From: an uncultured Alphaproteobacteria bacterium
GTDB lineage: Bacteria > Pseudomonadota > Alphaproteobacteria > CAAHEQ01 > UBA3637
Direction of reading: 5' to 3'
Length of the DNA stretch: 64,000 nt
Assembly (NCBI GenBank): GCA_944392795.1
Contig: CALXXX010000024.1
Span: 215 to 64,214, forward strand
Below are positions 7,996 through 54,298 of this stretch, one piece after another (position 1 is the stretch's first letter; the number at the start of each line of letters is the position of its first letter). A program made the translations under genes and the position numbers. Below the pieces are notes generated by a model. That model was not told where the DNA came from. It saw only the letters and a list, made by a program, of their open reading frames with translations, and made no database searches.

Positions 7996-10128
7996 TTAAC
8001 TGCTAAATGTACTGCCAAACCCAGATGTTGGTTGCTGTTCCGGCGGGACATGAACCGTTGATTGATCAAAATTCGGATCATTCTTTAATTCTAACTGCTG
8101 TTGTCGCATAGCATCATATTCTGGTGTATTCCCTGTTCCTGTTGACGTCCCTGTCGATTGCTCTTGTTGAATAGCACTAACATCTGCTGCCATTTGCTTA
8201 TACATTTCTGTCATGGCTAAGCTCTTTTGAGCATCCGTCATCGTTGTATTTGATTGCAAAGCTTGTGCTTGAGCCGTATAATTTTGGACGACAGAACCAT
8301 AAACAGGAGGTAATTCTGTTGCCGTAGAAACTATTGGTGTTCCATTCGAAGAAGAACCAGAACCCAAGAATTGATCTAAAATATTAGCCCCTGAATTAAC
8401 ACCTGACACAATCGAATTAGCCGCATTAGAGACACTAGTTGAACCAGTTGCTGCATATTCTGCATTTCGACCTGCTGAGATCAACTTATAAACAGCTGAT
8501 TGAACATCTGACATTGTTCCACTACCGAATGCACTTTGAGCCAAACCGCCGATACCCTGTCCAGCTGTTGTTACTGTTGATTTAATATTGGAAATATCAT
8601 TAAGCATTTGTTGAGCCTGATCAGCATATCCAAGATCAACTCCGGTAATTTGTTGAAATGAATTTTCAAGCCCAGATGCCGTATTTGTTAAATTTCTAAA
8701 GAAACTCTCTAAATTATTAACATTATCAGCACCTGCTCCTAAGAAATCTAATGCGCCTTTAAATGTTTCTTCCAGTTTTTCGCCTGTTGTTTTGGCGGCC
8801 CACTCCTTATTAGATATTTCATCTATTTGATTAGTAAATTGTTCATATTTTTGTTGAAATTCTGCCTCTTTTTTAGCCAACATTTTATCTTTTTCTTCCT
8901 GGCTCAAAGCACTGTTTTCGATTGTTTTTTTAGTTTGTTCAAATTGAGCCTTCTCAGCATCAGCCTGAGCTTGTAAATTTTGTTTTTCTCGAGCCCATTC
9001 TTGTTTTTTTTGTTCTAAGGCCCGCTCAGCCTCTTTTTGTTTTTCCTGAACTAACTGATTAGCGGCCTCTTTTTGAATCTCAAGTTCTTGTTTTTGAGCG
9101 GCCTCTATTTCGGCTTTTGTTGATGCCAATTGTTCATCAACTTTTGCTTTTTCCATTGCTTTTTCTTCTGCCGACATATTCGGATTATTATCTATTTCCT
9201 CCTTACGTTGAGCAGCAGCTTCCTCTGCACGTTCTGTTGCTGTTTTTTCAAGAGAGGTACGTTCTTGTTCCAACCCCTCTAATTCACCCTGTCGAGAAGC
9301 TTCTAACTCTTCTAACATAAAATTTCGTTCTTCTTCTGAAAGCGTTTGATCATTCAGAATATTATTCATTTCCTCGTTATAACGTTGATTAACCTCATCT
9401 TGGGCGGCTTGATTTTCTGCTATTGCTTGTTCTTGTTCTCTTTGCGCCGCTGTTTTATTCAATTCTTTTTCTTGCTCCTGCAAAGGATTTAAAGCTTCTT
9501 CGCGCATTAATTCATTTTCCTCCAAAAGATGATTCCGCTCTTCTTCTGTCAAAGTTGGATCATCTAAAATAGCTTGACGTTGTGCATCATATTGCGCATT
9601 AATTTCATCTTGCTGAGTTTTATTTGCTTCCAAAGCTTTTTGCCGTTGAGCTTCTTCTGCAACAGCCTTTTCACGTGCAATGCGATTTTCTTCTTCCTTA
9701 ACACGAGCCTGATATTTTGCTTCCTCTGCCGCTATTAATTGTGCTTTTTCCTCGTCTGTCAATTTTGGATCCGCCTTAATTTTAGCTATATTCGTATCAC
9801 GTTCATAAAGAGCCTTATCTAATTCGGAAACAGTTGTTGGAACAGAAGTTGCTGTTGAAGTAGAAGCACCATCTAATTTAATTGTATCCTGAGTTATTTC
9901 ATGGAAATTTACAGTTCTTCCCATCAAGGCATCATCATAGACATGCAAGTTACCAAATTCATAAGGGATATAATCAGAAGAAGATGTTGTTGACCCGATT
10001 CCTGATGTTGTTGACCCGGTCCCTGATGTCGTGGTCGGAGTAGGAGTTGTTTGTTGTGCTAGCATACTTTCCGAAATACTCAATAAACCAATCGTTAAAA
10101 TTGTTGTCAGTAATAATCTGTTTTTCAT
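7996..10128 (-). CDS. Secreted coiled-coil repeat protein
   Basis: Signal-peptide-like MKNRLLLTTILTIGLLSISESMLA after AAGGAG; Thr/Ser-rich N-terminus; repeated I-x-x-[DN]-x-x-[LM]-[ST]-x-EE[KR] units. Confidence 0.8.
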   Translation of the reverse strand: MKNRLLLTTILTIGLLSISESMLAQQTTPTPTTTSGTGSTTSGIGSTTSSSDYIPYEFGNLHVYDDALMGRTVNFHEITQDTIKLDGASTSTATSVPTTVSELDKALYERDTNIAKIKADPKLTDEEKAQLIAAEEAKYQARVKEEENRIAREKAVAEEAQRQKALEANKTQQDEINAQYDAQRQAILDDPTLTEEERNHLLEENELMREEALNPLQEQEKELNKTAAQREQEQAIAENQAAQDEVNQRYNEEMNNILNDQTLSEEERNFMLEELEASRQGELEGLEQERTSLEKTATERAEEAAAQRKEEIDNNPNMSAEEKAMEKAKVDEQLASTKAEIEAAQKQELEIQKEAANQLVQEKQKEAERALEQKKQEWAREKQNLQAQADAEKAQFEQTKKTIENSALSQEEKDKMLAKKEAEFQQKYEQFTNQIDEISNKEWAAKTTGEKLEETFKGALDFLGAGADNVNNLESFFRNLTNTASGLENSFQQITGVDLGYADQAQQMLNDISNIKSTVTTAGQGIGGLAQSAFGSGTMSDVQSAVYKLISAGRNAEYAATGSTSVSNAANSIVSGVNSGANILDQFLGSGSSSNGTPIVSTATELPPVYGSVVQNYTAQAQALQSNTTMTDAQKSLAMTEMYKQMAADVSAIQQEQSTGTSTGTGNTPEYDAMRQQQLELKNDPNFDQSTVHVPPEQQPTSGFGSTFSS

Positions 10129-10158
10129 GTTCCACTCCTTATTCCATGTCCTCTTTTT

Positions 10159-10187
10159 AGGATAACTCTTTTCAAGGCTGAAGTCAA
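10159..10187 (-). promoter_or_regulatory. Candidate sigma70 promoter for the repeat protein
   Basis: TTGACT-N17-TATCCT on the minus strand. Confidence 0.55.
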
Positions 10188-10198
10188 TAAATACTGAC

Positions 10199-10237
10199 AA
10201 AAAAGCCTTCTTTTTTTTCGAAAAGAAGGCTTTTTTT
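10199..10237 (-). terminator. Intrinsic terminator after infC
   Basis: AAAAGCCTTCTTTT/AAAAGAAGGCTTTT inverted repeat with flanking A/T runs. Confidence 0.8.
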
Positions 10238-10900: not shown

Positions 10901-12694
10901 ATGCGATGGATATTTATGTTTTTAATCATAATTTTTTCTTCTTGCGCTTTGGCTCAAGAAGAAAAATTACCAGCGCCCATCATCTCTGTCACAAAGTTTG
11001 TTAATCAAACAAAAAAACAGCTTCAATCAGCTCAAAAAAACTCTCCTAAAGAACTCTATCAACAAGCACCTTCTTGGACAACGGCGCTCTATGCCGATGA
11101 AAAATCTATGAGCCCTATAACAGGAACAGATGGAACCTCACCGTGGAAACAAACAATATTTGGACGTATTCGTTTACTTACTTGTCACACCGGTATAAAA
11201 AACTTAAGAAATTTATGGTTAACTTTAGATACGGAAATAAAAAAAGGATGGTCTATTCGCATTCCTCATTTAACTATCCAACCGACATCTCAAATTATAA
11301 ATGCTCATTTTTTTATTCCCAAACTCCCCCCCTTTGACGGGGAAAAGCCAAAACAATTTGTTAAAAGTGCCTCTTTTCCTTTTTATTTGCAGCTTAATCA
11401 AGCTAATACACCTTTAACAATAGATATTGACACAAATTTTGAAGCGTGCTTTCAAAATAATTGTCAACAAATTCAATCATCTGTTTCAATAACTCTTCCT
11501 AACACACAAAGTAAACCGTCTCCTTTTTGCCCATACATTCGCCGCTCAATGATGTATGTTCCTCTGGAAGCCTCAAAAGATGAGCTTACTTTCTTTTTAA
11601 CGCCGGAAAATTATTTACAAATTCAAGCTTCTTTTGAAAAAAAAGCATTTGAACCTCAAATTTTATTGACACAAAAAAAACAAATTTTTTACAAAATAAT
11701 ATCTCAAGAAACTATTCATAATAAGTTAAATATAACACTTTTACCTCAAAATTGGTCGCCAACCGAGCCTATTACTGTAACGATCATGAACAGAAAACAA
11801 ATAATGGAAAAAACAATGATTCCTCCATTAGGAGAAGCGCCAAATTTATCTTTTATCCCTTCTCAATCCAACAGACCATTCCGCTTTATTCTTTTCTTTT
11901 TAACAACCCCACTAATGTCTTATCTTTTATATGTCTTCTTCAAAAATGAATATAGCGCACGTCGAAAGAGCCTTTTCATTATTTGTATTTATCTTTTAAG
12001 CGGTATTTTATTTCAACTCCTTTTTCCACTCTTATCAGGTCTACATCTTTACGATTCTTTATTGTGGGCTTGGTCCATGGGAATCATCTTCATCCTTGCT
12101 GCTCTTTTTATTCAAAATTTAACTTTGATTTCTTTTATCGCTCTCACTTTTTTAGCTCCATTAACTTATCTTTATCCTCTTGTACAAGAAGATGAAAGTT
12201 GGCTCTTCGTTCAGTTAGCCTGTATATCAACTATACCTTATGTACTGTTTGCGTATATTCCCTCTTTTGCGGTCTCATGGAGTCGGTTTACACAAAAATT
12301 ATCACCCTTGTGGAAACGTCTCCCTTTGCTTATAAGTGGCACTATTTGGACTTTAATACTGCTTTGTTTACTCTATCATACCGCTGTCCCCACCCAAACA
12401 TCTCAGCAGCATCCCCAAGCAGAACTGATACTGATCAGTCCGCCTTGGCACATTCAAGGAACTCTTTTTGATATAACAGCCACACAGTTAAGCACAGGAA
12501 AAGAATTACTAAAAAAAGGAATACTATCCGTCAAAAGACAAACATCTCATTCAAAAATAGATATTCAACCCAACGAAACACCGTCTTTTCCTTTTGCTAT
12601 TTTAAAAGGAGAAAAACGATCAAAACCACTTATTTTCAAACCAACATTATCAACTTATCAACTAACAGACTACTTTAACTCTGTTCTTAATTGA
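10901..12694 (+). CDS. Degenerate DsbD/ScsB-like membrane protein
   Basis: Signal peptide; LTLDTEIKKGW and CFQNNC resemble the DsbD N-domain; multiple TM helices; C-terminal thioredoxin-like segment (LISPPWHIQG) without CxxC. Confidence 0.5.
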   Translation: MRWIFMFLIIIFSSCALAQEEKLPAPIISVTKFVNQTKKQLQSAQKNSPKELYQQAPSWTTALYADEKSMSPITGTDGTSPWKQTIFGRIRLLTCHTGIKNLRNLWLTLDTEIKKGWSIRIPHLTIQPTSQIINAHFFIPKLPPFDGEKPKQFVKSASFPFYLQLNQANTPLTIDIDTNFEACFQNNCQQIQSSVSITLPNTQSKPSPFCPYIRRSMMYVPLEASKDELTFFLTPENYLQIQASFEKKAFEPQILLTQKKQIFYKIISQETIHNKLNITLLPQNWSPTEPITVTIMNRKQIMEKTMIPPLGEAPNLSFIPSQSNRPFRFILFFLTTPLMSYLLYVFFKNEYSARRKSLFIICIYLLSGILFQLLFPLLSGLHLYDSLLWAWSMGIIFILAALFIQNLTLISFIALTFLAPLTYLYPLVQEDESWLFVQLACISTIPYVLFAYIPSFAVSWSRFTQKLSPLWKRLPLLISGTIWTLILLCLLYHTAVPTQTSQQHPQAELILISPPWHIQGTLFDITATQLSTGKELLKKGILSVKRQTSHSKIDIQPNETPSFPFAILKGEKRSKPLIFKPTLSTYQLTDYFNSVLN

Positions 12695-13122
12695 AGCTCC
12701 TCGATAAAACGACGAGCTAAAGCATCAACTCGTTCATTTTCCCGGTGTCCGTTATGTCCTTTAACCCAAACCCATTTCAAATGATGAGGAAGACTAAGTC
12801 TTAATAACTCTTGCCATAGTTCTAAGTTTGCTACAGGTTTCTTAGAAGCACTTTTCCAATTCTGAGCAACCCAAGTCGGAAGCCATTGAGTAAATCCTTT
12901 TAAAACATATGTACTATCTGTATAAATGGTCGCATCAACTGGCTCCTTTAACTGTCGAAGAGCTTCTATCACAGCCGTCAGTTCCATTTGATTGTTGGTT
13001 GTTTCTATTGCACCACCAGATATTTCTTTTTCTTTCCCCTTATAGCGCATTAAAACTCCCCATCCTCCCGGACCAGGATTTCCACTACATGCACCATCAG
13101 TGTAAATTTCAATTTTCTTCAT
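12670..13122 (-). CDS. rnhA: Ribonuclease HI
   Basis: IYTDGACSGNPGPGGWG, TTNNQMELTA, WVKGHNGHRENERVDALA. Confidence 0.97.
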   Translation of the reverse strand: MKKIEIYTDGACSGNPGPGGWGVLMRYKGKEKEISGGAIETTNNQMELTAVIEALRQLKEPVDATIYTDSTYVLKGFTQWLPTWVAQNWKSASKKPVANLELWQELLRLSLPHHLKWVWVKGHNGHRENERVDALARRFIEELQLRTELK

Positions 13123-13381
13123 TCCTTGAAGATGCCCGATTCTTTACCTATATTCAAGTATAAAGATAAAAAACTTTTTATTAGAGTATATTCTTTAAGA
13201 TATAATCTAAGATTTATCTTGTATTATCCAAAAAAATAGCAATATAAAAGGAAGATGAAGCAACAAAATTCCTATTCTTATTGGATGTTTTTTTAAAATG
13301 TATGCACTTTATTTTAAATTATTGTTGAAAAAAATATAAAAATACAAGTATAAACACTTTCAAGAAAAGAAATAACATAAG

Positions 13382-13750
13382 ATGATAAACAACATGACAA
13401 AAGAAAACTTTAGCAAAATATTGGGAAATCGCATTCGGGAGCTTAGGAAGATGAATGGGATGAGCCAATTGGATCTCGCCACGGAAATGGATGTAACACT
13501 GAATACTGTTTCCGGAATCGAGTGTGGGAAAACTTCTCCTAAAATTGAAACCTTGTGTCGAATGGCACTGGCTTTAGATATTCCGTTAGAGGATTTTTTC
13601 TCTTTTCCGGAACAATTTCCCCGTGATAAGAATGTTCGTCGGAAAGTAGAAAGCTTAGCACGTCAGTTGCTTCTATACGATGAGGATTTCATTGATTTAA
13701 TTATTGAAAATATTCATACAATGATGAAAATTAAAGGACCTAAAAAATAG
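13382..13750 (+). CDS. XRE-family helix-turn-helix regulator
   Basis: LGNRIRELRKMNGMSQLDLA...VSGIECGKTSP. Confidence 0.88.
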   Translation: MINNMTKENFSKILGNRIRELRKMNGMSQLDLATEMDVTLNTVSGIECGKTSPKIETLCRMALALDIPLEDFFSFPEQFPRDKNVRRKVESLARQLLLYDEDFIDLIIENIHTMMKIKGPKK

Positions 13751-13762
13751 GTCCTTTTTTTT
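13733..13762. terminator. Bidirectional terminator between convergent genes
   Basis: AAAGGACCT-N7-AGGTCCTTT plus T-run, overlapping the XRE stop codon. Confidence 0.65.
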
Positions 13763-13766
13763 CATT

Positions 13767-13952
13767 TTAAGCTACTTTTTTTGGCTTTATTTGAGCAGTT
13801 TGCATAGCTTTAGCTTCACTAAAGCAGACACGTTCGGCATATTCGCTTTGCTTTCCTTTATTAAAATGATTAACAGGTCTAAAATACCCCATCACACGTG
13901 TCCACACTTCGCAAGGTTGACGTTCTTCATCTTTTAAATGAACAGCACACAT
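13767..13952 (-). CDS. Stand-alone NrdD C-terminal glycyl-radical domain (61 aa)
   Basis: CEVWTRVMGYFRPVNHFNKGKQSEYAER matches the class III RNR C-terminal motif; SD AGGGAGG upstream. Confidence 0.8.
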   Translation of the reverse strand: MCAVHLKDEERQPCEVWTRVMGYFRPVNHFNKGKQSEYAERVCFSEAKAMQTAQIKPKKVA

Positions 13953-14132
13953 TTTTTCCTCCCTAAGATTTACTTCATTTTACAATATAACACAAAGAGT
14001 TAAAAAAAACGTTAATTTAAAAATCTTTAAAACTTTATAGTTATGTAGATAAGTATTGCTTTTCCTTCCTAAATGATATATATCTTTATTAACTTAGGTA
14101 ATAAAAATATTTTTATCATTAAGAGAAAAGAT

Positions 14133-15806
14133 ATGCCTGATAAAAAAAACACACTTCAAATTGGACGGAGTATGATTGAAATCATCGCTGTTTTAGCGAT
14201 TATTGGTATTTTAACTGCTCTTAGCCTAACTTTATATAGCTATTTAATCAACAAACACCGCGCTAATAACACAATTTATGATACTATGTTACGTGCTACT
14301 AATGTCCCAATGTATTATGAGACATATAAAGAGGCAAACGAAGGTACTCTTTTTAATTTCCCTGATCTAGGCCCAACGACACCAGACGCCTATCCAACTC
14401 AAGCCATTCGTGAACCCTTAACATCTCCCTACATTTTCCGAGTAGAAGTAAGTGCTATTCCTAATGAAGTTTGTCGACATGTGATTGATTTAAATCCAAC
14501 TGACATAGATCTTATCAAAATAAACTCAACAGAAAGGAGCAAACCAGACTCCACATCCGCAGATTGCTCGAAACAAAAATTAAATACCTTCTATTTTTAT
14601 TTCGAACCGACAACCCCCTCTTCGTCTGAAGAGGATGACGACCTTCAGGAAGGAGGCTGCACAGAAGATTCTTGTGAAAATTGTCATTTCTGTGATTCAG
14701 AAAGTGGGCAGTGCGTGCGTGAAGATTGCCCAATTCTAACCTGTCCAACAGGTTCTTATGCAACAGGCGTCGATGATTGCAACTGTATTATATCTTGTCA
14801 AGATTGCCCCGAGTTTACGCCATGTAATACTTGTTTTGATACTCTATATGACGCAAAAGGTTGTCCTACAGGTTGTACTCCCAGTACCTCTCATGAATGT
14901 TTATGTCCGGATGAACCTGTGTCTTGTAACCCTTTGTGCGAGACAGAAGGACAAGATAATAACGGCTGTCGAACATGTACTTCTTTATGTACAGAATCAT
15001 GCACAGTCTGTGGAGAAAATGGATGTGAAGCAAGTGATGCTCCAGAATGTCAGTGTCCGGAAGGATGTGATGCTTGTGAACAATGCGTCAACGGTGTATG
15101 TCAATTTATGTGTGGAGCAGAGGAAGTTTGCAATAGTGAAGGAACATGCGTACACTGTCCGTTAATTTTAAATGAAGGCAGAACTTGTCCTGATAATGGT
15201 CAGGGCGCTCTCTACATTACTTGGTGTCATAAAGAATCTTTAGGAGATAACAGCTGTGGTTGTTGCATATCTTGTCCTGGAGAAGGAGTAGCTTATGCTT
15301 TCAAACGAAATCCAGAGTCGCCAGAAGAGTGTTGTTTTGAGGAAGTTATTCAAAAATCAAATGGAGAATGGATGTGCTGCTCCTCAGATTCATCTCTTTA
15401 TAATATGAAATATGCATCTGGTCTCCGCTTTGACAGCAATAATAATCCTTATCTTGGAAGCCCAGCTCTTATTGATACTTTGTGTTGTAAAGCATCACCT
15501 CTTTGTCAATGGGGCTTGGATTACAAAGGAATAGAGATTTGTTATAGGCCTTATCAATGCTGCCCAGAAGGTTCAAAACCGCATATTATTTCGATGATTG
15601 ATAGAGGAGAACATGACATCGAATTTTTATCAGGATGCTGTGCTGGTACAGTGTCATTAAAATATTCTTGCGATTATACCGATTCTGATCCATCCAGTCC
15701 CTGTTATTATATTAGCGGCAATCATGCCGAGGCTTATACTTGTTCTACTGGGTGGATAGAAGATTGCTCAAATTGTACTTCCTCAGGCTATTATACGGTA
15801 GAATAG
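14133..15806 (+). CDS. Prepilin-like protein with a large Cys-rich C-terminal region
   Basis: QIG|RSMIEIIAVLAIIGIL prepilin-like leader (Glu+5), acidic linker, then about 58 Cys by hand count. Start set at MPDKK. Confidence 0.85.
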   Translation: MPDKKNTLQIGRSMIEIIAVLAIIGILTALSLTLYSYLINKHRANNTIYDTMLRATNVPMYYETYKEANEGTLFNFPDLGPTTPDAYPTQAIREPLTSPYIFRVEVSAIPNEVCRHVIDLNPTDIDLIKINSTERSKPDSTSADCSKQKLNTFYFYFEPTTPSSSEEDDDLQEGGCTEDSCENCHFCDSESGQCVREDCPILTCPTGSYATGVDDCNCIISCQDCPEFTPCNTCFDTLYDAKGCPTGCTPSTSHECLCPDEPVSCNPLCETEGQDNNGCRTCTSLCTESCTVCGENGCEASDAPECQCPEGCDACEQCVNGVCQFMCGAEEVCNSEGTCVHCPLILNEGRTCPDNGQGALYITWCHKESLGDNSCGCCISCPGEGVAYAFKRNPESPEECCFEEVIQKSNGEWMCCSSDSSLYNMKYASGLRFDSNNNPYLGSPALIDTLCCKASPLCQWGLDYKGIEICYRPYQCCPEGSKPHIISMIDRGEHDIEFLSGCCAGTVSLKYSCDYTDSDPSSPCYYISGNHAEAYTCSTGWIEDCSNCTSSGYYTVE

Positions 15807-16104
15807 TAGTGAACAATTATCAAAATGATGCTTTGAGGCTTTAAAGCCTCATAATAATTCTCTATGATATTTCGTTCAAATAGAGGGAATTCTGAGAAAA
15901 CTTTTTAAAATTTTAAAGAGTTATAAAATAGAGCTTTACTCAATAAGTCTGTTTTATTCCAGAACCTAAGGTTAAATAGAGTGTTTATTCTGAAAGAAAA
16001 CCACAGAGATAATTTGAATAAAACATAAAGAAATACATATGACTACATTATAAAAATTACATTTATAGAAAAAGTTTAAAAAGAAAATATTGGCATTGTT
16101 AATA

Positions 16105-16134
16105 AAAAACCCCTGTTAAAAAACAGGGGCTTTT
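16105..16134 (-). terminator. Terminator after ptsN
   Basis: CCCCTGTT/AACAGGGG hairpin with T-run on the minus strand. Confidence 0.7.
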
Positions 16135-16146
16135 CATAAATTTCAC

Positions 16147-16602
16147 CTATTCATCAGCATCTGCTGTTTGAATAATTTTCAAAGTTTCTTCTTTTGTTTT
16201 TGCGGAACGCAGCTGAGTACAAACATCTTCATTACGTAATAATTTAGAAATTCGTGCCAAAGCTTTTAAATGATCTGCGCCAGATTCTTCCGGCACCAAC
16301 AAGAAAAAGATTAAATCAACAGGTTTTCCATCAATTGCTTCGAAATCCAATGGCTTTGTACGCATAAAAGCACAAAATAAGTCCTTTAACCCAGGCAATC
16401 TTGCATGAGGAATTGCAACTCCCTTACCAATACCTGTTGTCCCCAAACGTTCTCGTTCGATTAAAGCATCAAAAACAGCTTGATGTTCACATCCAGTCAA
16501 AGGAGCAGACACTTCGGCGACTTCTTCAAGTGCTTGTTTCTTCGAAGCCGCATCAACATCTAAAAAGATGAGACTAGGCTTTAAAATATCCACAATTCTC
16601 AT
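16147..16602 (-). CDS. ptsN: PTS IIA nitrogen-regulatory protein
   Basis: LIERERLGTTGIGKGVAIPHAR (phospho-His), HLKALARISKLL. Confidence 0.93.
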   Translation of the reverse strand: MRIVDILKPSLIFLDVDAASKKQALEEVAEVSAPLTGCEHQAVFDALIERERLGTTGIGKGVAIPHARLPGLKDLFCAFMRTKPLDFEAIDGKPVDLIFFLLVPEESGADHLKALARISKLLRNEDVCTQLRSAKTKEETLKIIQTADADE

Positions 16603-17251: not shown

Positions 17252-17923
17252 TTAACGGGAATAATGATTATGTTTTTGAAAATTTCTGATTTCTGTCCGC
17301 CGACGTTTTCGAAATTTCTCGTTAATTTGTCCGTAGAGCATCCAATCATCCGGTGAAAAATCATCCTCTTTAAATTGGACTTCCCAAATATTATGATTCA
17401 TGTGTATTACATGAGAGGTCCGAATAAGTGAAGCTTTAGTAGCACCTACATTTTTAGCCTCAACTCGGTACCATAGAACTTTTGAATCCATCATCGTATT
17501 TAAAATGCTTTCTAAGCCTTGATCCCCCAGTGGATTACCCGAAAGTGTTAATCGCCCTATTTTTTTAGATGATAAAACGGTAGCCAAAGCAGGGGCAGAA
17601 GCCGAAGTCATCTGACAATTTTCTAAGTCAATCGTCGTACAATGTGTATTATCCTTTAAACTTTCCGCCAATTTTAAAATGATCTCATCTGTCATTTTTT
17701 GCCCGGACCAATTTAATGTATCTAGCTCTGAATCGTTCTGCATAATTTGATTTAATTGATATTTCAGTTGTTCCGAAGAAAGTTTTATGACATTGTTTTC
17801 TAAATATCCTCTTTGCTTGTACTGTAGTCGCAATTTCTCATCTGCCGTTTCTTTAGCAATCAAGGCATGACGTTCTTCTTCTGTCATATCTGTCATATAT
17901 TGAAATTTTAAACGAGATGTCAT
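17252..17923 (-). CDS. Leucine-rich-repeat protein, ribonuclease-inhibitor-like class
   Basis: LDTLNWSGQKMTD, TTIDLENCQMTS, GRLTLSGNPLGDQG at about 28-aa spacing; SD AGGAGGT before ATG 17923. Confidence 0.8.
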   Translation of the reverse strand: MTSRLKFQYMTDMTEEERHALIAKETADEKLRLQYKQRGYLENNVIKLSSEQLKYQLNQIMQNDSELDTLNWSGQKMTDEIILKLAESLKDNTHCTTIDLENCQMTSASAPALATVLSSKKIGRLTLSGNPLGDQGLESILNTMMDSKVLWYRVEAKNVGATKASLIRTSHVIHMNHNIWEVQFKEDDFSPDDWMLYGQINEKFRKRRRTEIRNFQKHNHYSR

Positions 17924-17974
17924 AATATACCTCCTGCAAATAAAAATTATAGCAAAAAATAGACAAAAAATCAA

Positions 17975-51779: not shown

Positions 51780-52184
51780 ATGAAAAATACTCAACAAGGT
51801 CGTTCTATGATTGAAATGCTCGGCGTTTTAGCCATTATCGGTGTTTTGTCCATCGGTGGCTTGGCTGGTTACACAATGGCGATGAACCGCCACAGAGCAA
51901 ACCAAATTTTGGACTATGTCTCTCGTGCTGTTGTTATTGCTCAAACAAAGGGCGATGGTGCACAATCCATCGATGATACTTGCCAAAACATTTTGGATGG
52001 TGAAGCAGTTCCTGTCTCTGGCATGACTTGCGAAGTAGATCGTACAGCTGGTATCGATCAAAATACAACAGTCACAGTTGGTGGTGTTAATGAACGTATT
52101 GCTGCTGCTTTAGCAAACCGCTCCGGCAACCAAGTAACAATTACATCCACTTCAAATGGTGCTAATTTCACATTCATGAATTAA
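51780..52184 (+). CDS. Type IV pilin-like protein, copy 1
   Basis: QQG|RSMIEMLGVLAIIGVLSIGGLAGY; 134 aa; one Cys pair. Confidence 0.88.
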   Translation: MKNTQQGRSMIEMLGVLAIIGVLSIGGLAGYTMAMNRHRANQILDYVSRAVVIAQTKGDGAQSIDDTCQNILDGEAVPVSGMTCEVDRTAGIDQNTTVTVGGVNERIAAALANRSGNQVTITSTSNGANFTFMN

Positions 52185-52206
52185 TTTTCTGAAAGGATTT
52201 TTAAAA

Positions 52207-52614
52207 ATGAAGAATACTCAACAAGGTCGTTCTATGATTGAAATGCTCGGCGTTTTAGCCATTATCGGTGTTTTGTCCATCGGTGGCTTAGCCGGTTACA
52301 CAATGGCCATGAACCGTCACAGAGCAAATCAAATCTTGGACTATGTCTCTCGTGCTGTTGTGATCGCTCAAACAAAGGGTGATGGAACACAGGAAATTTC
52401 GAATGAAAATTGCTCTACCATTTTAGATGGTGAAGATGTTCCAGTCTCCGGCATGGGATGTACAGTGAACAAAACAGCTGGCTATGCAAATATCACTGTT
52501 TCTGTAACAAATGTTAACAGCCGTATTGCAGCTGCTTTACAAAATCGTTCCGGTAACCAAGTAACGATTACATCTACTTCAAACAGTGCTGCTTTCACTT
52601 TTGCAAGTTCATAG
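52207..52614 (+). CDS. Type IV pilin-like protein, copy 2
   Basis: First 60 aa identical to copy 1; diverged C-terminal half; same AAAGGATTTTTAAA leader. Confidence 0.88.
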   Translation: MKNTQQGRSMIEMLGVLAIIGVLSIGGLAGYTMAMNRHRANQILDYVSRAVVIAQTKGDGTQEISNENCSTILDGEDVPVSGMGCTVNKTAGYANITVSVTNVNSRIAAALQNRSGNQVTITSTSNSAAFTFASS

Positions 52615-52630
52615 TTTGCAAAATGAGGAA

Positions 52631-52661
52631 AAAACGCTCCGAGGTATCGGAGCGTTTTTTT
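52631..52661 (+). terminator. Strong terminator after the pilin pair
   Basis: AAAACGCTCCGA-GGTA-TCGGAGCGTTTT plus T-run. Confidence 0.88.
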
Positions 52662-52683
52662 ATATCTTTTTATGAACGAAATA

Positions 52684-52712
52684 TTGACGCTTTTCTTCAT
52701 TTTTCCTATGAT
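52684..52712 (+). promoter_or_regulatory. Candidate sigma70 promoter of the GT41 gene
   Basis: TTGACG-N17-TATGAT. Confidence 0.65.
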
Positions 52713-52732
52713 AAAAAGAAAAAAGGAAAATA

Positions 52733-54298
52733 ATGAACACAGCTTTAGATCTTCTTAACAAAGGCGTTGAATACGCACAAAATAAAAATTACACTCAAGC
52801 GGAAAAATGTTTCCGTCAATCCCTAGAACTGGATCCGAATAATCCTGTTACTATTCGAAACCTTGGCAACGCTTGCGCAGCAGATGGCCGAATGACGGAA
52901 GGGCTTGTCTATCTGACACAATACTTGGATATGAGACCTGACGACTTAGAAACCATGGGACATGTCCTTTACTTAAAGTATAATTACTGCATTTGGAATG
53001 GATTAGAAAGAATGCAGGAACGCCTTAAAAAAGGATTACAAGAACATACTCTGCAATCCGAACCTAAACTTTTATTTTTGGGAATGACTTTCGAAGAACG
53101 CTATCACTATATGACGAAGCTAGCCGCAGAGAACAAAAAACTTTCTCTTTTGCGCAAAGAAAAACCTTTCTCATTACCAACTTATCAACACGACAAGTTA
53201 AAAGTCGGTTTTTTCACAACAGATATAGGACCTTCTCCTTGTGGTTTTGTCATTGCCAGTTTATGGGAAAACTTATCTCACGATGATTTTGAATGGCATT
53301 GTTTTTCTTGCCGAAAACTTTCCGATAAGCCTGAAGATGCTCCCTTAATAAAGCGGCACAAGGCGGCTTTTGATTTTTTCCATGACGTCTCGAATATAAA
53401 AGACTTCCGCATGATGGCTGATACCATAGCAAAAGAAGAAATTGATATTTTAATTGATGTCAATATGCTTATCAATTCAATGTATCCGGCTTTATATTAC
53501 AAGCCTGCACCGATTATCGTAAATTATTTAGGCTATCCTTCGACAACAGGCTTGCCTTGGTATGATTATATGATTGCAGATGCTTGGACCGTTCCTTCAG
53601 AAAAAGAACGTTGGTTTACAGAAAAAATTATTCGTATGCCTCATTGTTATCATTGTGTTGACACAAACCCTGAAACTTATCCAGGGCTTGCACCTAAATC
53701 GATTCTAGGACTTCCAGAAAAAGGAACTATTTTTGCCTGTTTAAATTCTCCGTTTAAAATTACACCTCACTATTGGGATATGTGGATGCGAATTTTAAAG
53801 GCTGTTCCTGACAGTATCCTTTGGTTACGTTCTTTTAATTTTGAAACTGATGAGAAATTTAAAGAAGAAGCTAAAAAACGCAATATTAATCCCAACAGAA
53901 TTATTGTCTTGCCGAAAATGCCAACTCATGCAGACTTTCTGTATTGCTTCAAAAATGCTGATTTATTTCTGGACACAGAAATGTACAACGCACATTCAAC
54001 TGCTTTAGAGAGTCTTTTCTGTGGTGTCCCCCTTATTACTTGTCCAGGAGACTCTTATGCCTCACGCGTTTCATCCAGTATGCTGCATGCCTTCGGATTA
54101 GATGAGATGATTTGCAAGACAGAAGAAGAATATGAAAAAAAAGCAATTGAACTTGGTCTTAATACAGAAAAGCTCAATTGTCTTAAAGCAAAAACCGTTG
54201 CGTTAATGACACAAAATAATCCACTGTTTGATATGAAATCTTATGCACGAGATTTTGAGAAGCTTTTACGACAAATTTCATCTAAAAAGAATTCTTAA
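52733..54298 (+). CDS. TPR-containing GT41 (OGT/SPINDLY-like) glycosyltransferase
   Basis: About two N-terminal TPRs; PAPIIVNYLGYPSTTG, FACLNSPFKIT, DLFLDT..YNAHST, PGDSYASRVSSSML. Confidence 0.9.
   Translation: MNTALDLLNKGVEYAQNKNYTQAEKCFRQSLELDPNNPVTIRNLGNACAADGRMTEGLVYLTQYLDMRPDDLETMGHVLYLKYNYCIWNGLERMQERLKKGLQEHTLQSEPKLLFLGMTFEERYHYMTKLAAENKKLSLLRKEKPFSLPTYQHDKLKVGFFTTDIGPSPCGFVIASLWENLSHDDFEWHCFSCRKLSDKPEDAPLIKRHKAAFDFFHDVSNIKDFRMMADTIAKEEIDILIDVNMLINSMYPALYYKPAPIIVNYLGYPSTTGLPWYDYMIADAWTVPSEKERWFTEKIIRMPHCYHCVDTNPETYPGLAPKSILGLPEKGTIFACLNSPFKITPHYWDMWMRILKAVPDSILWLRSFNFETDEKFKEEAKKRNINPNRIIVLPKMPTHADFLYCFKNADLFLDTEMYNAHSTALESLFCGVPLITCPGDSYASRVSSSMLHAFGLDEMICKTEEEYEKKAIELGLNTEKLNCLKAKTVALMTQNNPLFDMKSYARDFEKLLRQISSKKNS

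What the first reader, a model, noticed from the sequence alone, without database searches (positions are those of the whole stretch)
14133..15806. Pilin head fused to a ~60-cysteine, eukaryote-like disulfide-rich stalk
Seen: prepilin-like leader, a ~170-aa pilin-like domain with 2 Cys, an acidic linker (SSSEEDDDLQE), then about 58 Cys in ~385 aa. The proximal zone has CxxC/CxC motifs and the distal zone has CC doublets. Inference: a minor pilin displaying a large modular adhesin or antigenic decoy, recalling protist surface antigens more than known pilins.
Basis: partly seen in the sequence, partly recalled or inferred. Interest (0 to 1): 0.7.

Follow-up and report, generated by a model that had tools for sequence, protein, structure and literature searches.

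The report
Cysteine-packed modular type IVb pilin gene
This gene of an uncultured gut alphaproteobacterium encodes a pilus-subunit "handle" fused to a 380-residue, probably disulfide-laced stalk, one of about 30 such genes in a 1.3-Mb genome, and most likely serves as a swappable sticky tip for a single hair-like pilus, though nothing has been tested at the bench.

Summary
Window 14133-15806 (+) encodes a 557-aa protein with a prepilin-like leader (MPDKKNTLQIG|RSMIE), a head of about 160 aa with 2 Cys, an acidic linker, and 58 Cys in the last 382 aa (CxxC/CxC proximally, six CC doublets distally).

The head is modelled confidently (pLDDT 85). Its only credible structural matches are the type IVb pilins CofA and TcpA, at moderate TM-scores (0.40-0.56).

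The genome (1.29 Mb) has one R64-thin-pilus-like type IVb operon, a prepilin peptidase and two DsbA-like oxidoreductases. It carries 31 copies of this head; most of its 41 contigs break inside family genes. The head occurs in 80/80 genomes of the order.

Conservation decays from head to distal tip. Tail Cys are 6-fold more conserved than other residues.

New here:
- The gene lies in a genus-specific 3-kb islet between rnhA and ptsN.
- A sister species has a different, Sec-exported Cys-rich gene in the same slot.
- A 2.4-kb tract around the gene is 98% identical between two species whose flanks are 78-90% identical, which points to recent cassette exchange.

Best reading: a modular type IVb minor pilin acting as a variable pilus-tip adhesin. 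This is a new variant of a known kind. I found no paper describing the family, but this scan has flagged it repeatedly. All evidence is computational.

The parts
14133..15806 (+). Complete gene (557 codons plus stop) for the Cys-rich modular pilin (P0001)
   Evidence: It is intact, with all 60 Cys kept, in two other assemblies (L107, L108).
14121..14125 (+). Shine-Dalgarno sequence (AAGAG; AGGAG in relatives), 7 nt before the ATG
14133..14165 (+). Class III (prepilin-type) leader peptide, aa 1-11 MPDKKNTLQIG, ending in Gly(-1)
   Evidence: Read directly from the sequence. A profile of family heads aligns G|RSMIE to G|FTLIE of solved type IV pilins. There are weak NCBIfam prepilin hits, below cut-off.
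14166..14606 (+). Pilin head, aa 12-158: hydrophobic alpha1-N with Glu+5, a long alpha1 helix, a 4-stranded sheet, and the conserved Cys114/Cys145 pair
   Evidence: AF2 head model has pLDDT 85.4 and pTM 0.73. Foldseek top hits are CofA (9iuf_A, prob 1.00, TM 0.56/0.50) and TcpA. The Cys pair is nearly invariant in alignment A1.
14607..14657 (+). Acidic/Ser-Pro linker, aa 159-175 (TTPSSSEEDDDLQEGG)
   Evidence: pLDDT is below 50 in both models. Relatives carry Gly/Ser-, Pro/Asp- or acidic linkers at this position.
14658..15167 (+). Tail zone A, aa 176-345: 36 Cys in CxxC/CxC-type small modules. This is the semi-conserved proximal stalk.
   Evidence: aa 180-250 are modelled at pLDDT about 80 as beta-hairpin modules. 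About 30 of 108 homologues share aa 181-240 and about 13 share up to aa 340. There are no amino-acid differences from the 98% twin.
15168..15803 (+). Tail zone B, aa 346-557: 22 Cys including six CC doublets. This is the hypervariable distal part.
   Evidence: Only 3-6 of 108 homologues align here. Nine of the 13 amino-acid differences from the 98% twin fall here.
15835..15850 (+). 16-nt perfect palindrome (GAGGCTTTAAAGCCTC) 29 nt after the stop; a possible transcript-end hairpin with no T-run
   Evidence: conserved in L107/L108
16110..16129 (.). Terminator-like hairpin between the convergent 3' ends of this gene and ptsN
13123..16146 (.). Genus-specific islet of about 3 kb inserted between rnhA (12670-13122) and ptsN (16147-16602). 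It holds an HTH_3 regulator (13382-13750, +), a 61-aa NrdD-C-terminus-like ORF (13767-13952, -) and this gene.
   Evidence: In most of the other genera whose locus could be read (e.g. G043, G063, G079, G031, G008, G029), rnhA directly abuts ptsN. Only the three genomes of this genus carry the islet.
13850..16290 (.). Tract of about 2.4 kb that is 97-100% identical to a sister species, while flanking genes are 78-90% identical
   Evidence: gene dS 0.041, against 0.34-1.23 in the adjacent genes
51780..52614 (+). Two tandem short pilins (134 and 135 aa, 2 Cys each) with the same MKNTQQG|RSMIEMLGVLAIIGVLS leader; candidate major pilins of the same filament
   Evidence: One reaches the TIGR02532 cut-off (16.7 vs 16.3). 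Pfam N_methyl hits are weak.

Best explanation
The gene encodes a modular type IV pilin of the type IVb kind.

Proposed mechanism:
1. The 11-residue leader and hydrophobic alpha1-N insert the protein into the inner membrane.
2. The genome's single A24 prepilin peptidase cuts after Gly11.
3. The single R64-thin-pilus-like type IVb machine incorporates the head into the filament. That machine comprises a TcpQ-domain protein, a PilN-type lipoprotein secretin, PilO, PilP, an ATPase and a platform protein.
4. The head most likely sits at the tip, as in the large minor pilins PilV, CofB and TcpB. The body of the filament is probably built from the short 134/135-aa pilins that share the same leader.
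5. The 382-residue tail is exported with the head and oxidised in the periplasm, probably by the two membrane-anchored DsbA-like proteins, forming up to 29 disulfides.
6. The tail projects as a protease-resistant stalk. Its proximal part (zone A) acts as a conserved spacer. Its distal part (zone B) is the variable, ligand-binding or antigenic end.

The gene is one of at least 31 head-bearing paralogues in this genome. Together they give one filament a repertoire of alternative tips. Individual cassettes are gained, lost, replaced and exchanged between species.

Shown here: the sequence anatomy, the predicted fold of the head, the machinery, the family size and distribution, the conservation pattern and the locus history.
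Inferred: cleavage, assembly, tip location, disulfide bonding and adhesion.
For: Class III signal:
- Gly(-1), Glu(+5) and a 22-residue hydrophobic stretch are present.
- The family-head profile aligns to alpha1-N of solved type IV pilins, E 3e-4 to 0.01.

Fold:
- The head model has pLDDT 85.4.
- The only matches with probability above 0.25 are the T4b pilins CofA (prob 1.00, TM 0.56/0.50 over 208 columns) and TcpA (TM 0.42-0.48), plus C. difficile PilW. The same top hits came from the low-confidence full-length model.

Machinery in the same genome:
- Peptidase_A24: 62 bits, cut-off 26.5.
- On contig C40: TcpQ domain (E 3e-17), PilN-family T4b secretin (274.5 bits, cut-off 287.65), PAP_PilO (94.6 bits, above cut-off), PilP (40.7 vs 34.65), T2SSE ATPase (228 bits) and T2SSF platform (92.5 bits).
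- A family head sits in the pilin slot immediately downstream.
- Only one platform gene is present in the genome.

Linkage outside the order:
- In a 201-genome class sample, head and PilO co-occur (9 genomes with both, 6 head only, 19 PilO only; Fisher p = 1.6e-5).
- In four genomes outside the order, the head gene lies 4-5 kb downstream of pilO on the same strand, as on C40.

Extracytoplasmic, disulfide-type tail:
- The 58 tail Cys (an even number) are identical in 61% of 32 homologues; other tail residues in 9.7%.
- Relatives' tails are bona fide EGF/DPY/EB/Dickkopf-type modules.
- The same CC-doublet modules also occur behind ordinary Sec signal peptides.
- Two anchored DsbA-like proteins with CSHC and CGYC motifs are present.

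Constant base, variable tip:
- Of 108 homologues, 105-108 share the head, about 30 share aa 181-240, about 13 share up to aa 340, and about 3 share the last 120 aa.
- Nine of the 13 substitutions against the 98% twin lie in zone B and none in zone A.

Repertoire:
- This genome has 31 head matches. All 80 genomes of the order have between 6 and at least 48 each.
- Family genes break most contigs.
Against: - No experiment exists. Cleavage, methylation, assembly, surface exposure and binding are all untested.
- Arg at +1 is unusual, and this protein scores below the curated cut-offs of TIGR02532 (10.7 vs 16.3) and hits no Pfam model.
- The structural matches are moderate (Foldseek E 0.013; TM about 0.5).
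- The leader (11 aa) and head (about 150 aa) are shorter than in classical T4b major pilins.
- The tail could not be modelled: the full-length model has pLDDT 53, so no lectin-like or other binding fold was seen.
- DsbB and VKOR were not detected, so how DsbA would be reoxidised is unknown.
- A 382-residue passenger must pass the secretin or be assembled outside it.
- Tip location is argued only by analogy.
Confidence: 0.6

Rival explanations
1. The family is an antigenic-variation or decoy coat rather than a set of adhesins. It would be a repertoire of disulfide-rich ectodomains presented on the pilin scaffold. Expression would be sequential or mutually exclusive, and the role would be to evade host IgA, phages or grazers rather than to bind a ligand.
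For: - Repertoire size: 31 heads in 1.29 Mb, and 6 to at least 48 per genome across the order.
- Several paralogues share identical 5' coding blocks.
- The distal end is hypervariable.
- Cassettes are gained, lost and replaced between sister species.
- This gene has dN/dS of 0.28, against 0.01-0.18 in its neighbours.
Against: - dN/dS is below 1 and rests on only 29 substitutions.
- No switching device (invertible promoter, shufflon sites, homopolymer variation) was seen at this locus. The coding A8 run is identical in three assemblies.
- Each paralogue has its own upstream region.
- This reading overlaps the best explanation (same export and display) and differs only in purpose.
Confidence: 0.17
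2. The pilin-like head is only an export or anchoring device. The protein stays anchored in the inner membrane, or forms a short pseudopilus as in type II secretion. The Cys-rich domain would then work in the periplasm or at the secretin mouth, for example as a plug, a scaffold, or a partner for the Sec-exported Cys-rich proteins.
For: - The ATPase scores best against GspE (245 bits).
- Pseudopilins share the same signal.
- A large passenger may be hard to thread through a secretin.
- The same CC modules exist as Sec-exported soluble proteins, so pilus display is not obligatory for their function.
Against: - The operon content (TcpQ, PilN-type lipoprotein secretin, PilO, PilP) is that of type IVb pili. 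No T2SS-specific GspC/L/M or multiple minor pseudopilins were noted.
- The head resembles T4b pilins, not GspG-K.
- Dozens of variable paralogues make little sense for a periplasmic structural role.
Confidence: 0.15
3. The cysteines bind metals, or buffer redox, in a non-secreted protein.
For: - CxxC and CxC motifs are also typical of zinc ribbons and metallothioneins.
- DsbB and VKOR were not found.
Against: - The N-terminal class III signal and hydrophobic helix argue for export.
- The tail has 28 aromatic residues and only 6 His, unlike metallothioneins.
- Relatives' tails are extracellular-type EGF/DPY/EB modules.
- Paralogous modules carry Sec signal peptides.
- DsbA-like oxidoreductases are present.
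Confidence: 0.04
4. The gene, or its near-identity between species, is an assembly or binning artefact, or the gene is a decaying pseudogene.
For: - All genomes involved are MAGs.
- The family breaks assemblies.
- A strain-switching assembler could create mosaic contigs.
Against: - The ORF is intact, with all 60 Cys, in three independent assemblies from different sources (window, NCBI GCA_949282845.1, Logan ERR10610627).
- The gene lies mid-contig, 14 kb from the end.
- The 2.4-kb tract still differs by 1.7%, so it is not the same molecule.
- dN/dS of 0.28 indicates purifying selection.
Confidence: 0.04

Closest known systems
PilV minor pilin/adhesin of IncI (R64, TP114) conjugative type IVb thin pili
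   Same: - The machinery has the same gene set and order: TcpQ/PilM-like, PilN lipoprotein secretin, PilO, PilP, ATPase (PilQ), platform (PilR), then pilin.
- The protein is a large pilin with a constant N-terminal pilin part and alternative C-terminal parts. In PilV these parts set which cells the pilus binds (PMC9045228, abstract).
- The operon sits next to type IV secretion genes: VirB2-, VirB3- and VirB4-like genes are divergent on C40.
   Different: - No sequence similarity to the PilV constant region: no Pfam hit at E<=1, including Shufflon_N.
- Variation comes from dozens of separate complete genes, not from one gene with a shufflon.
- The tails are 10-17% Cys modules rather than PilV's short variable C-termini.
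- The system is chromosomal in a 1.3-Mb genome, not plasmid-borne.
CofB (ETEC CFA/III) and TcpB (V. cholerae TCP), large type IVb minor pilins at the pilus tip
   Same: - The head's nearest structures are the cognate major pilins CofA and TcpA.
- The architecture is pilin domain, then flexible linker, then extra C-terminal domains.
- The size (557 aa) is close to CofB (about 520 aa). That figure and the tip location of CofB/TcpB come from my own knowledge and from Raynaud et al. 2021 (PMC8179133, Discussion).
   Different: - The extra domains of CofB and TcpB are a beta-repeat and a beta-sandwich without dense disulfides.
- Those systems have one such gene each, not about 30.
- The leader here is short (11 aa), with Arg at +1.
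Modular type IV pilins (S. sanguinis PilB with a vWA module, PilC with a lectin module; Raynaud et al., PNAS 2021, PMC8179133)
   Same: [quoted passage not shown] That paper counted more than 1,200 such proteins in 264 architectures and predicted that many more lack database signatures.
   Different: - The module here is a very long disulfide-rich array with no database signature.
- The family is massively expanded per genome and restricted, in its long form, to one order of gut Alphaproteobacteria.
- It would have escaped that survey, because most members do not reach the N_methyl/IPR012902 threshold.
Eukaryotic extracellular Cys-rich repeats (teneurin-type EGF, Dumpy DPY, EB, Dickkopf-N) and protist variant surface proteins (Giardia VSP)
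   Same: - Family relatives pass Pfam cut-offs for EGF_Teneurin, EGF_2, DUF7107, Dumpy_DPY, EB and Dickkopf_N.
- Cys density, CxxC abundance and large per-genome repertoires recall VSPs.
   Different: - This protein's own tail hits none of these families.
- No VSP match was found.
- Anchoring is by an N-terminal pilin helix, not a C-terminal TM segment.
- The resemblance to protist antigens is an analogy of composition, not detectable homology.

Membership tests
Type IV pilins (class III signal peptide proteins) | Short hydrophilic leader ending in Gly(-1), then about 20 hydrophobic residues with Glu at +5 | tested here: met
   The sequence reads MPDKKNTLQIG|RSMIE-IIAVLAIIGILTALSLTLYSYL. The profile of family heads aligns G|R..E onto G|F..E of solved pilins. 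G11, R12 and E16 are nearly invariant in 56 heads.
Type IV pilins (class III signal peptide proteins) | Score above the curated cut-off of TIGR02532 / PF07963 (N-terminal methylation motif) | tested here: not met
   P0001 scores 10.7 bits against a TIGR02532 cut-off of 16.3 and has no Pfam hit at E<=1. Relatives do pass: P0037 reaches 24.0 vs 21.2 on PF07963, and the short paralogue at 51780 reaches 16.7 vs 16.3 on TIGR02532. Arg at +1 is the likely cause.
Type IV pilins (class III signal peptide proteins) | Long N-terminal alpha-helix packed on an antiparallel beta-sheet | tested here: met
   The AF2 head model has pLDDT 85.4, with helix 5-57 and strands 88-93, 102-110, 127-130 and 150-157. 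The only credible Foldseek hits are pilins.
Type IV pilins (class III signal peptide proteins) | C-terminal (D-region) disulfide pair in the globular domain | tested here: inconclusive
   Cys114 and Cys145 are nearly invariant across the family.
Type IV pilins (class III signal peptide proteins) | Cognate prepilin peptidase and assembly machinery in the same genome | tested here: met
   Peptidase_A24 scores 62 bits. The ATPase, platform, secretin, PilO and PilP lie on C40, with a family head in the pilin slot.
Type IV pilins (class III signal peptide proteins) | Leader cleavage, N-methylation and polymerisation into a filament | not testable with these tools
   This needs expression or proteomics.
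Type IVb pilins (CofA/TcpA/PilS class) | Assembled by a type IVb gene set (lipoprotein secretin of the PilN/BfpB/TcpC type, TcpQ, PilO/PilP of the R64 type) | tested here: met
   TIGR02520 scores 274.5 bits (cut-off 287.65, just below). PF10671 TcpQ has E 3e-17. PF06864 scores 94.6 bits. TIGR03021 scores 40.7 vs 34.65. Head and PilO co-occur and are linked in other families of the class.
Type IVb pilins (CofA/TcpA/PilS class) | Fold closest to solved type IVb pilins | tested here: met
   9iuf_A CofA has prob 1.00 and TM 0.56/0.50. 3s0t CofA has TM 0.40. 8uhf TcpA has TM 0.42-0.48. E-values are weak (at least 0.013), so support is moderate.
Type IVb pilins (CofA/TcpA/PilS class) | Long leader (about 15-30 aa) and large mature pilin domain (about 190 aa); these criteria come from my own knowledge | tested here: not met
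   The leader is 11 aa and the pilin domain about 150 aa. The short paralogues have 7-aa leaders and about 127-aa mature proteins.
PilV shufflon adhesins (PF04917 Shufflon_N) | Homology to the PilV constant region | tested here: not met
   There is no Pfam hit at E<=1 for P0001.
PilV shufflon adhesins (PF04917 Shufflon_N) | C-terminal variants switched by Rci-mediated inversion at sfx repeats | not tested
   No recombinase or sfx search was run. No convincing inverted repeats were found at this locus. Variation here is carried by separate genes.
Modular type IV pilins (Raynaud et al. 2021) | N-terminal pilin module, short linker, extra C-terminal module not specific to pilus biology | tested here: met
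   Head 12-158, linker 159-175, Cys-rich tail 176-557. Relatives' tails are EGF, DPY and EB modules.
EGF-like / teneurin EGF / DPY / EB / Dickkopf Cys-rich domains | Score above the Pfam gathering cut-off | tested here: not met
   The tail (aa 175-557) has 0 Pfam families at E<=1 and 0 PDB sequences at E<=10. phmmer against 1.84 billion representatives finds only its own cluster plus one weak hit. Relatives P0051, P0064, P0045, P0033 and P0011 do pass.
Giardia VSP-type protist surface antigens | Match to the VSP family; C-terminal TM anchor | tested here: not met
   The Pfam scans gave no VSP hit. The only hydrophobic segment is N-terminal.
   There is no Pfam hit at E<=1 on the whole protein or on the tail.

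The most novel reading that the evidence does not exclude
A whole order of small-genome gut and rumen Alphaproteobacteria uses one chromosomal, R64-like type IVb pilus as a display platform. That pilus is encoded back-to-back with VirB2/3/4 type IV secretion genes.

The platform would carry a repertoire of dozens of disulfide-rich, partly eukaryote-like tip modules per genome. These would be complemented by Sec-secreted versions of the same modules. The cassettes would be traded between species by homologous recombination: here, 98% identity against a background of about 86%.

Functionally this would be a chromosomal, multigene counterpart of the PilV shufflon. The tips would choose which cells (bacteria, protists or host epithelium) the bacterium attaches to for contact-dependent type IV secretion. 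That would imply an epibiotic or otherwise partner-dependent lifestyle for this common but uncultured gut lineage.
Probability: 0.2. Interest if true: 0.85.

Novelty: new variant of a known kind. Interest (0 to 1): 0.6.

Why it matters
Type IV pili are usually thought of as one major subunit plus a handful of minor ones. Here a 1.3-Mb genome spends roughly 3% of its DNA on about 30 pilin-headed, cysteine-packed proteins, and every sampled genome of the order does something similar.

If these are interchangeable pilus tips, three things follow:
- They would be the largest adhesin repertoire known for a single type IV filament.
- They would be a bacterial use of EGF/DPY-like disulfide modules.
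- They would give a handle on how an abundant but uncultured gut lineage attaches to its partners.

The cassette-like behaviour found here (islet insertion, slot replacement, inter-species exchange) makes the question testable with long-read metagenomes and metatranscriptomes. The conserved head and the G|R leader give a simple search key for annotating the family, which current curated models miss.

Tried and rejected
- Pfam and NCBIfam on the whole protein and on the tail gave nothing for the tail, and only sub-threshold prepilin hits for the N-terminus.
- A PDB sequence search with the tail gave no hit at E<=10.
- phmmer of the tail against 1.84 billion representatives found only its own cluster and one weak hit (P0110, E 2e-5), so no deeper tail family could be built.
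- The full-length AF2 model with 34 homologues reached mean pLDDT 53. Only aa 180-250 were confident. Its weak hits to a poxvirus TNF-receptor Cys-rich domain and to NELL2 (E of at least 0.8) were not taken as evidence.
- The antistasin and Giardia-VSP ideas found no family match.
- I looked for switches at the locus, namely invertible repeats, homopolymer variation and shared promoters:
  - The 32-nt inverted repeat flanking the gene (14006-14037 / 15906-15937) is 78% complementary AT-rich sequence and probably chance.
  - The coding A8 run is identical in three assemblies.
  - The paralogues share 5' coding sequence but not upstream regions.
- I looked for near-identical copies in other genera (G013, G011). 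Only the heads are similar.
- DsbB and VKOR were not found.
- Three literature searches found no description of this family.
Full report
**1. Observation**

Window 14133-15806 (+) is an intact ORF of 557 codons.
- It contains 60 Cys. Two (C114, C145) lie in the first 175 residues and 58 lie between residues 176 and 548, about 15% of the tail.
- The median Cys content of the 656 ORFs of at least 250 aa in this genome is 0.86%.
- The acidic linker (TTPSSSEEDDDLQEGG) is present.
- The zoning is as described: CxxC and CxC motifs up to about residue 345, and six CC doublets from 377 to 503.
- The start at 14133, rather than the upstream in-frame ATG at 14073, is backed by an AAGAG Shine-Dalgarno sequence 7 nt upstream, which reads AGGAG in two related assemblies.

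**2. The head is a type IV pilin module of the IVb kind**

*Sequence.*
- The N-terminus reads MPDKKNTLQIG|RSMIEIIAVLAIIGILTALSL. It has Gly at -1, Glu at +5 and a 22-residue hydrophobic stretch.
- Arg at +1 replaces the usual Phe or Met. This is probably why curated models score it below threshold: TIGR02532 gives 10.7 bits against a cut-off of 16.3, and Pfam gives no hit.
- A profile of 11 diverse family heads (A1) matches only the alpha1-N of solved type IV pilins in the PDB (E 3e-4 to 0.01), with G|R..E aligned on G|F..E.

*Predicted structure.*
- An AF2 model of residues 1-180, built on 56 heads, has pLDDT 85.4 and pTM 0.73. It shows a 53-residue alpha1 helix followed by a four-stranded sheet.
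- Its best PDB matches are CofA in the ETEC CFA/III type IVb pilus (9iuf_A: prob 1.00, TM 0.56/0.50, 208 columns), the CofA crystal structures (TM 0.40) and TcpA (TM 0.42-0.48).
- No non-pilin hit has probability above 0.15.
- E-values are weak (at least 0.013), so I rate this as moderate, not strong, structural support.
- The two head Cys are nearly invariant across the family, as expected for the pilin D-region disulfide. I could not measure the distance between them in the model.

**3. The machinery exists, is single, and is linked to this head type**

The window's genome has 1.29 Mb in 41 contigs and is 99.4% complete.

| Component | Location | Score |
|---|---|---|
| A24 prepilin peptidase (233 aa, GGGDVK motif) | C15 | 62 bits, cut-off 26.5 |
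| TPR-like protein | C40 operon | below cut-off |
| TcpQ-domain protein | C40 operon | E 3e-17 |
| PilN-family type IVb lipoprotein secretin | C40 operon | TIGR02520, 274.5 bits vs 287.65 |
| PilO | C40 operon | PF06864, 94.6 bits |
| PilP | C40 operon | TIGR03021, 40.7 vs 34.65 |
| GspE/PilB-type ATPase | C40 operon | 228 bits |
| T2SSF platform protein (the only one in the genome) | C40 operon | 92.5 bits |

- This is the gene order of the IncI R64/TP114 thin pilus.
- The next gene, in the pilin slot, is the 5' end of a family member that runs off the contig end.
- Divergently upstream lie TrbC/VirB2-like, VirB3-like and VirB4 genes (VirB4: TIGR00929, E 8e-103).

*Co-occurrence test.* I searched an evenly drawn sample of 201 genomes of the class.
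- 15 genomes have the head, 28 have R64-type PilO, and 9 have both. Fisher's exact test gives p = 1.6e-5, or p = 3e-4 without the two genomes of the own order. Shared ancestry inflates this.
- In four genomes of other families (G117, G102, G185, G134), the head gene lies 4-5 kb downstream of pilO on the same strand, exactly as on C40.
- Outside the order, the head-bearing ORFs are short (160-330 aa). The long Cys-rich fusions are therefore a speciality of this order.

*Candidate major pilins.* Two tandem short pilins in the window share the same leader: 51780-52184 and 52207-52614, of 134 and 135 aa with 2 Cys each. They are the natural candidates for the major subunit.

**4. The tail is an exported, disulfide-type modular array with a constant base and a variable end**

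The tail itself has no recognisable relatives in the domain libraries:
- no Pfam hit at E<=1;
- no PDB sequence hit;
- essentially no relatives by phmmer among 1.84 billion representatives.

The family context is nevertheless clear. All 108 homologues from the 5.8-billion-protein search share the architecture: head, then a Gly/Ser, Pro/Asp or acidic linker, then a tail with 8-17% Cys. Several tails pass Pfam cut-offs for teneurin-type EGF, EGF_2, DUF7107, Dumpy DPY, EB and Dickkopf-N modules.

- *Cys conservation.* In the tail of this protein, Cys positions are identical in 61% of 32 aligned homologues; other positions in 9.7%. Against the 38%-identical P0003, 45 of 58 Cys are conserved, compared with 92 of 324 other residues. 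This is the signature of structural disulfides.
- *Head-to-tip decay.* Of 108 homologues, 105-108 align over the head, about 30 over aa 181-240, about 13 up to aa 340, six up to aa 420 and about three over the last 120 residues.
- *Recent substitutions.* Against its 98% twin, the protein has 13 substitutions: 3 in the head, 1 in the linker, 0 in zone A (170 aa) and 9 in zone B (212 aa). All 60 Cys are kept.
- *Sec-exported versions.* The genome also encodes at least six proteins built from the same "AYWNGS..QCC" CC-doublet modules, but with ordinary Sec signal peptides. One has 1075 aa and 135 Cys. These modules therefore work outside the cytoplasm independently of the pilin head.
- *Oxidoreductases.* Two membrane-anchored DsbA-like thioredoxin-fold proteins (CSHC, CGYC) are present. 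DsbB and VKOR were not detected. How DsbA would be reoxidised remains open.

The full-length AF2 model was poor (pLDDT 53). Only aa 180-250 were confident, as stacked beta-hairpins. No binding fold can be claimed.

**5. Family size and distribution**

- This genome has 31 matches to the head profile.
- At least 14 head fragments and about 20 Cys-rich tail fragments sit at contig ends, so the family is what fragments the assembly.
- At least six paralogues share an identical 5' coding block of 60-240 nt but have different upstream regions.
- About 38 kb, 3% of the genome, lies in open frames with at least 8.5% Cys.
- All 80 genomes of the order (one family, 16 genera, 0.7-2.0 Mb) carry the head, with 6 to at least 48 copies each.
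- The named records are almost all "uncultured Alphaproteobacteria bacterium" MAGs from human gut, rumen and caecum.
- Within its own genome this gene is an outlier. Its head is only 44-51% identical to the main group, and its tail is 20-30% identical to any paralogue.

*Islet.* In most of the other genera whose locus could be read, rnhA directly abuts ptsN. Only the three genomes of this genus carry an insertion of about 3 kb. It holds an HTH_3 regulator, a 61-aa ORF equal to the C-terminal glycyl-radical stretch of NrdD, and a Cys-rich gene.

*Slot replacement.* One sister species (G016, the same locus as L107, GCA_949282845.1) has the same gene. The other (G015) has, in the same slot, a different Cys-rich gene with no pilin head and apparently a Sec-type signal peptide, made of CC-doublet modules.

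*Recent exchange.* I compared the window with L107.

| Gene | nt identity | dS | dN/dS |
|---|---|---|---|
| This gene | 98.3% | 0.041 | 0.28 (14 synonymous, 15 non-synonymous changes) |
| Adjacent genes overall | 78-90% | 0.34-1.23 | 0.01-0.18 |
| HTH regulator | 86.0% | 1.23 | 0.017 |
| rnhA | 82.3% | 1.17 | 0.060 |
| hpf | 88.8% | 0.76 | 0.012 |
| ptsN | 89.5% | 0.59 | 0.029 |

- The high-identity tract runs from about 13850 to about 16290. It covers the gene and both intergenic regions.
- The simplest reading is a recent recombinational exchange of this cassette between species.
- Caveats: the contig is mosaic elsewhere too (leuS 98.2%, BON 96.5%), and all genomes are MAGs.

*Gain and loss.* A second case of turnover was seen. 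An 826-aa family gene is inserted in the relative between sequences that are contiguous in this genome (L024 5835-8693 against G000 C19:21632-21730).

**7. Mechanism**

The best-supported reading is a modular type IVb minor pilin.
1. It is cut after Gly11 by the A24 peptidase.
2. Its alpha1 helix is incorporated into the single type IVb filament, most likely at the tip.
3. The tail is oxidised in the periplasm and projects as a rigid stalk whose distal part varies.
4. The roughly 30 paralogues form a repertoire of alternative tips.

This works like PilV of IncI thin pili, whose alternative C-termini select the cells the pilus binds in the gut (PMC9045228). It also resembles CofB and TcpB, and fits the "modular pilin" concept of Raynaud et al. 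(PMC8179133).

Membership is a separate question:
- It qualifies as a type IV pilin by signal, fold and machinery, but fails the curated N-terminal models.
- It is type IVb by machinery and nearest fold, but not by leader or domain length.
- It is not a PilV homologue.
- Its tail belongs to no described family.

Rivals are given with odds in the report sections: antigenic coat or decoy, pseudopilin-like periplasmic role, metal binding, and artefact.

**8. Novelty and limits**

- Four literature searches found no description of the family.
- This scan's own notes show the family has been flagged at least 22 times in at least 18 genomes, including a near-identical gene elsewhere. I used those notes as leads only.
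- I re-tested the pilin fold, the machinery and the family size here. My results contradict one note's bold reading that VirB2/3/4 are missing.
- I rate the finding a new variant of a known kind. It is interesting mainly for the scale of the repertoire, the eukaryote-like modules and the cassette dynamics.
- Everything is computational.

Noticed in passing
window 51780-54298: Two tandem short pilins (134 and 135 aa) with the family leader are followed directly by a TPR + GT41 (O-GlcNAc-transferase-like) gene at 52733-54298 (PF13844, 223 bits). This may be a pilin glycosylation module.
   Followed up: partly
window 13767-13952 (-): A 61-aa ORF consists only of the C-terminal glycyl-radical stretch of anaerobic ribonucleotide reductase NrdD (TIGR02487 positions 550-579). 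It is conserved in both sister species next to the HTH_3 regulator. It could be a "spare-part" radical domain like GrcA, or a gene remnant.
   Followed up: partly
L105 (G000 contig C40:7000-20673), 710-3986 (-) and 4167-13406 (+): The type IVb pilus operon lies back-to-back with TrbC/VirB2-like (131 aa), VirB3-like (113 aa) and VirB4 (810 aa, TIGR00929 E 8e-103) genes. It also recalls IncI plasmids, where a thin type IVb pilus assists a T4SS.
   Followed up: partly
G000 contig C37, both ends (first and last ~130 nt): The same family 5' end (...FHRGSQTGRSMIEMLGVLVIVGVLSIA) runs outward from both ends of the 66-kb contig in inverted orientation. This could be a substrate for large inversions, or simply two paralogues.
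   Followed up: no
L024 5835-8693 vs G000 contig C19:21632-21730: There is a presence/absence polymorphism. The sister species has an 826-aa, 110-Cys family gene inserted downstream of two small ORFs that look like ribosomal-protein genes (not annotated here), whereas this genome has an empty 98-nt site. That gene's tail is 84% identical to the C32:12097-14685 gene of this genome, which lies at another locus.
   Followed up: partly
G000 C6:16563-17360, C17:28861-29508, C19:73316-73948, C21:41030-41740, C5:1-741, C36:20328-23552; L112 (G015) slot between rnhA and ptsN: A second class of Cys-rich proteins is built of "AYWNGS..QCC" CC-doublet modules behind ordinary Sec signal peptides. One has 1075 aa and 135 Cys. 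In sister species G015, a gene of this class occupies the very slot that holds the pilin-fused gene here. They may be secreted partners or alternatives of the pilin-borne modules.
   Followed up: partly
G000 whole genome; C5:3385-3834 (-), C27:32158-32631 (+): The genome has two membrane-anchored DsbA-like proteins (CSHC, CGYC) but no detectable DsbB or VKOR, even though about 3% of it encodes Cys-rich exported proteins. The route for reoxidising DsbA is unknown.
   Followed up: partly
window 4800-25500 vs L107: Divergence between the two sister species is strongly mosaic along one contig: leuS 98.2%, BON-domain gene 96.5%, pheT 92.6%, but the 597-aa membrane protein only 78% and rnhA 82%. The LRR gene at 17252-17974 gave no blastn hit at all. 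This indicates frequent inter-species recombination and a fast-evolving eukaryote-like LRR protein.
   Followed up: partly
window 14006-14037 and 15906-15937: A 32-nt inverted repeat (78% complementary) flanks the gene about 100 nt outside each end. It is AT-rich, low-complexity sequence and probably chance.
   Followed up: no
window 7996-10200 (-): A 734-aa secreted protein has a Thr/Ser-rich N-terminus and about 400 aa of E/K/Q/A-rich coiled coil, with a weak DUF1542 match. It is another probable surface fibril of this small genome.
   Followed up: no
G000 C17:1869-2465 (-): A 379-aa PilT/TraJ/DotB-like ATPase (pilT_fam, 124 bits, below cut-off) lies away from the pilus operon. It may be a retraction ATPase for the type IVb pilus or a T4SS component.
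   Followed up: no
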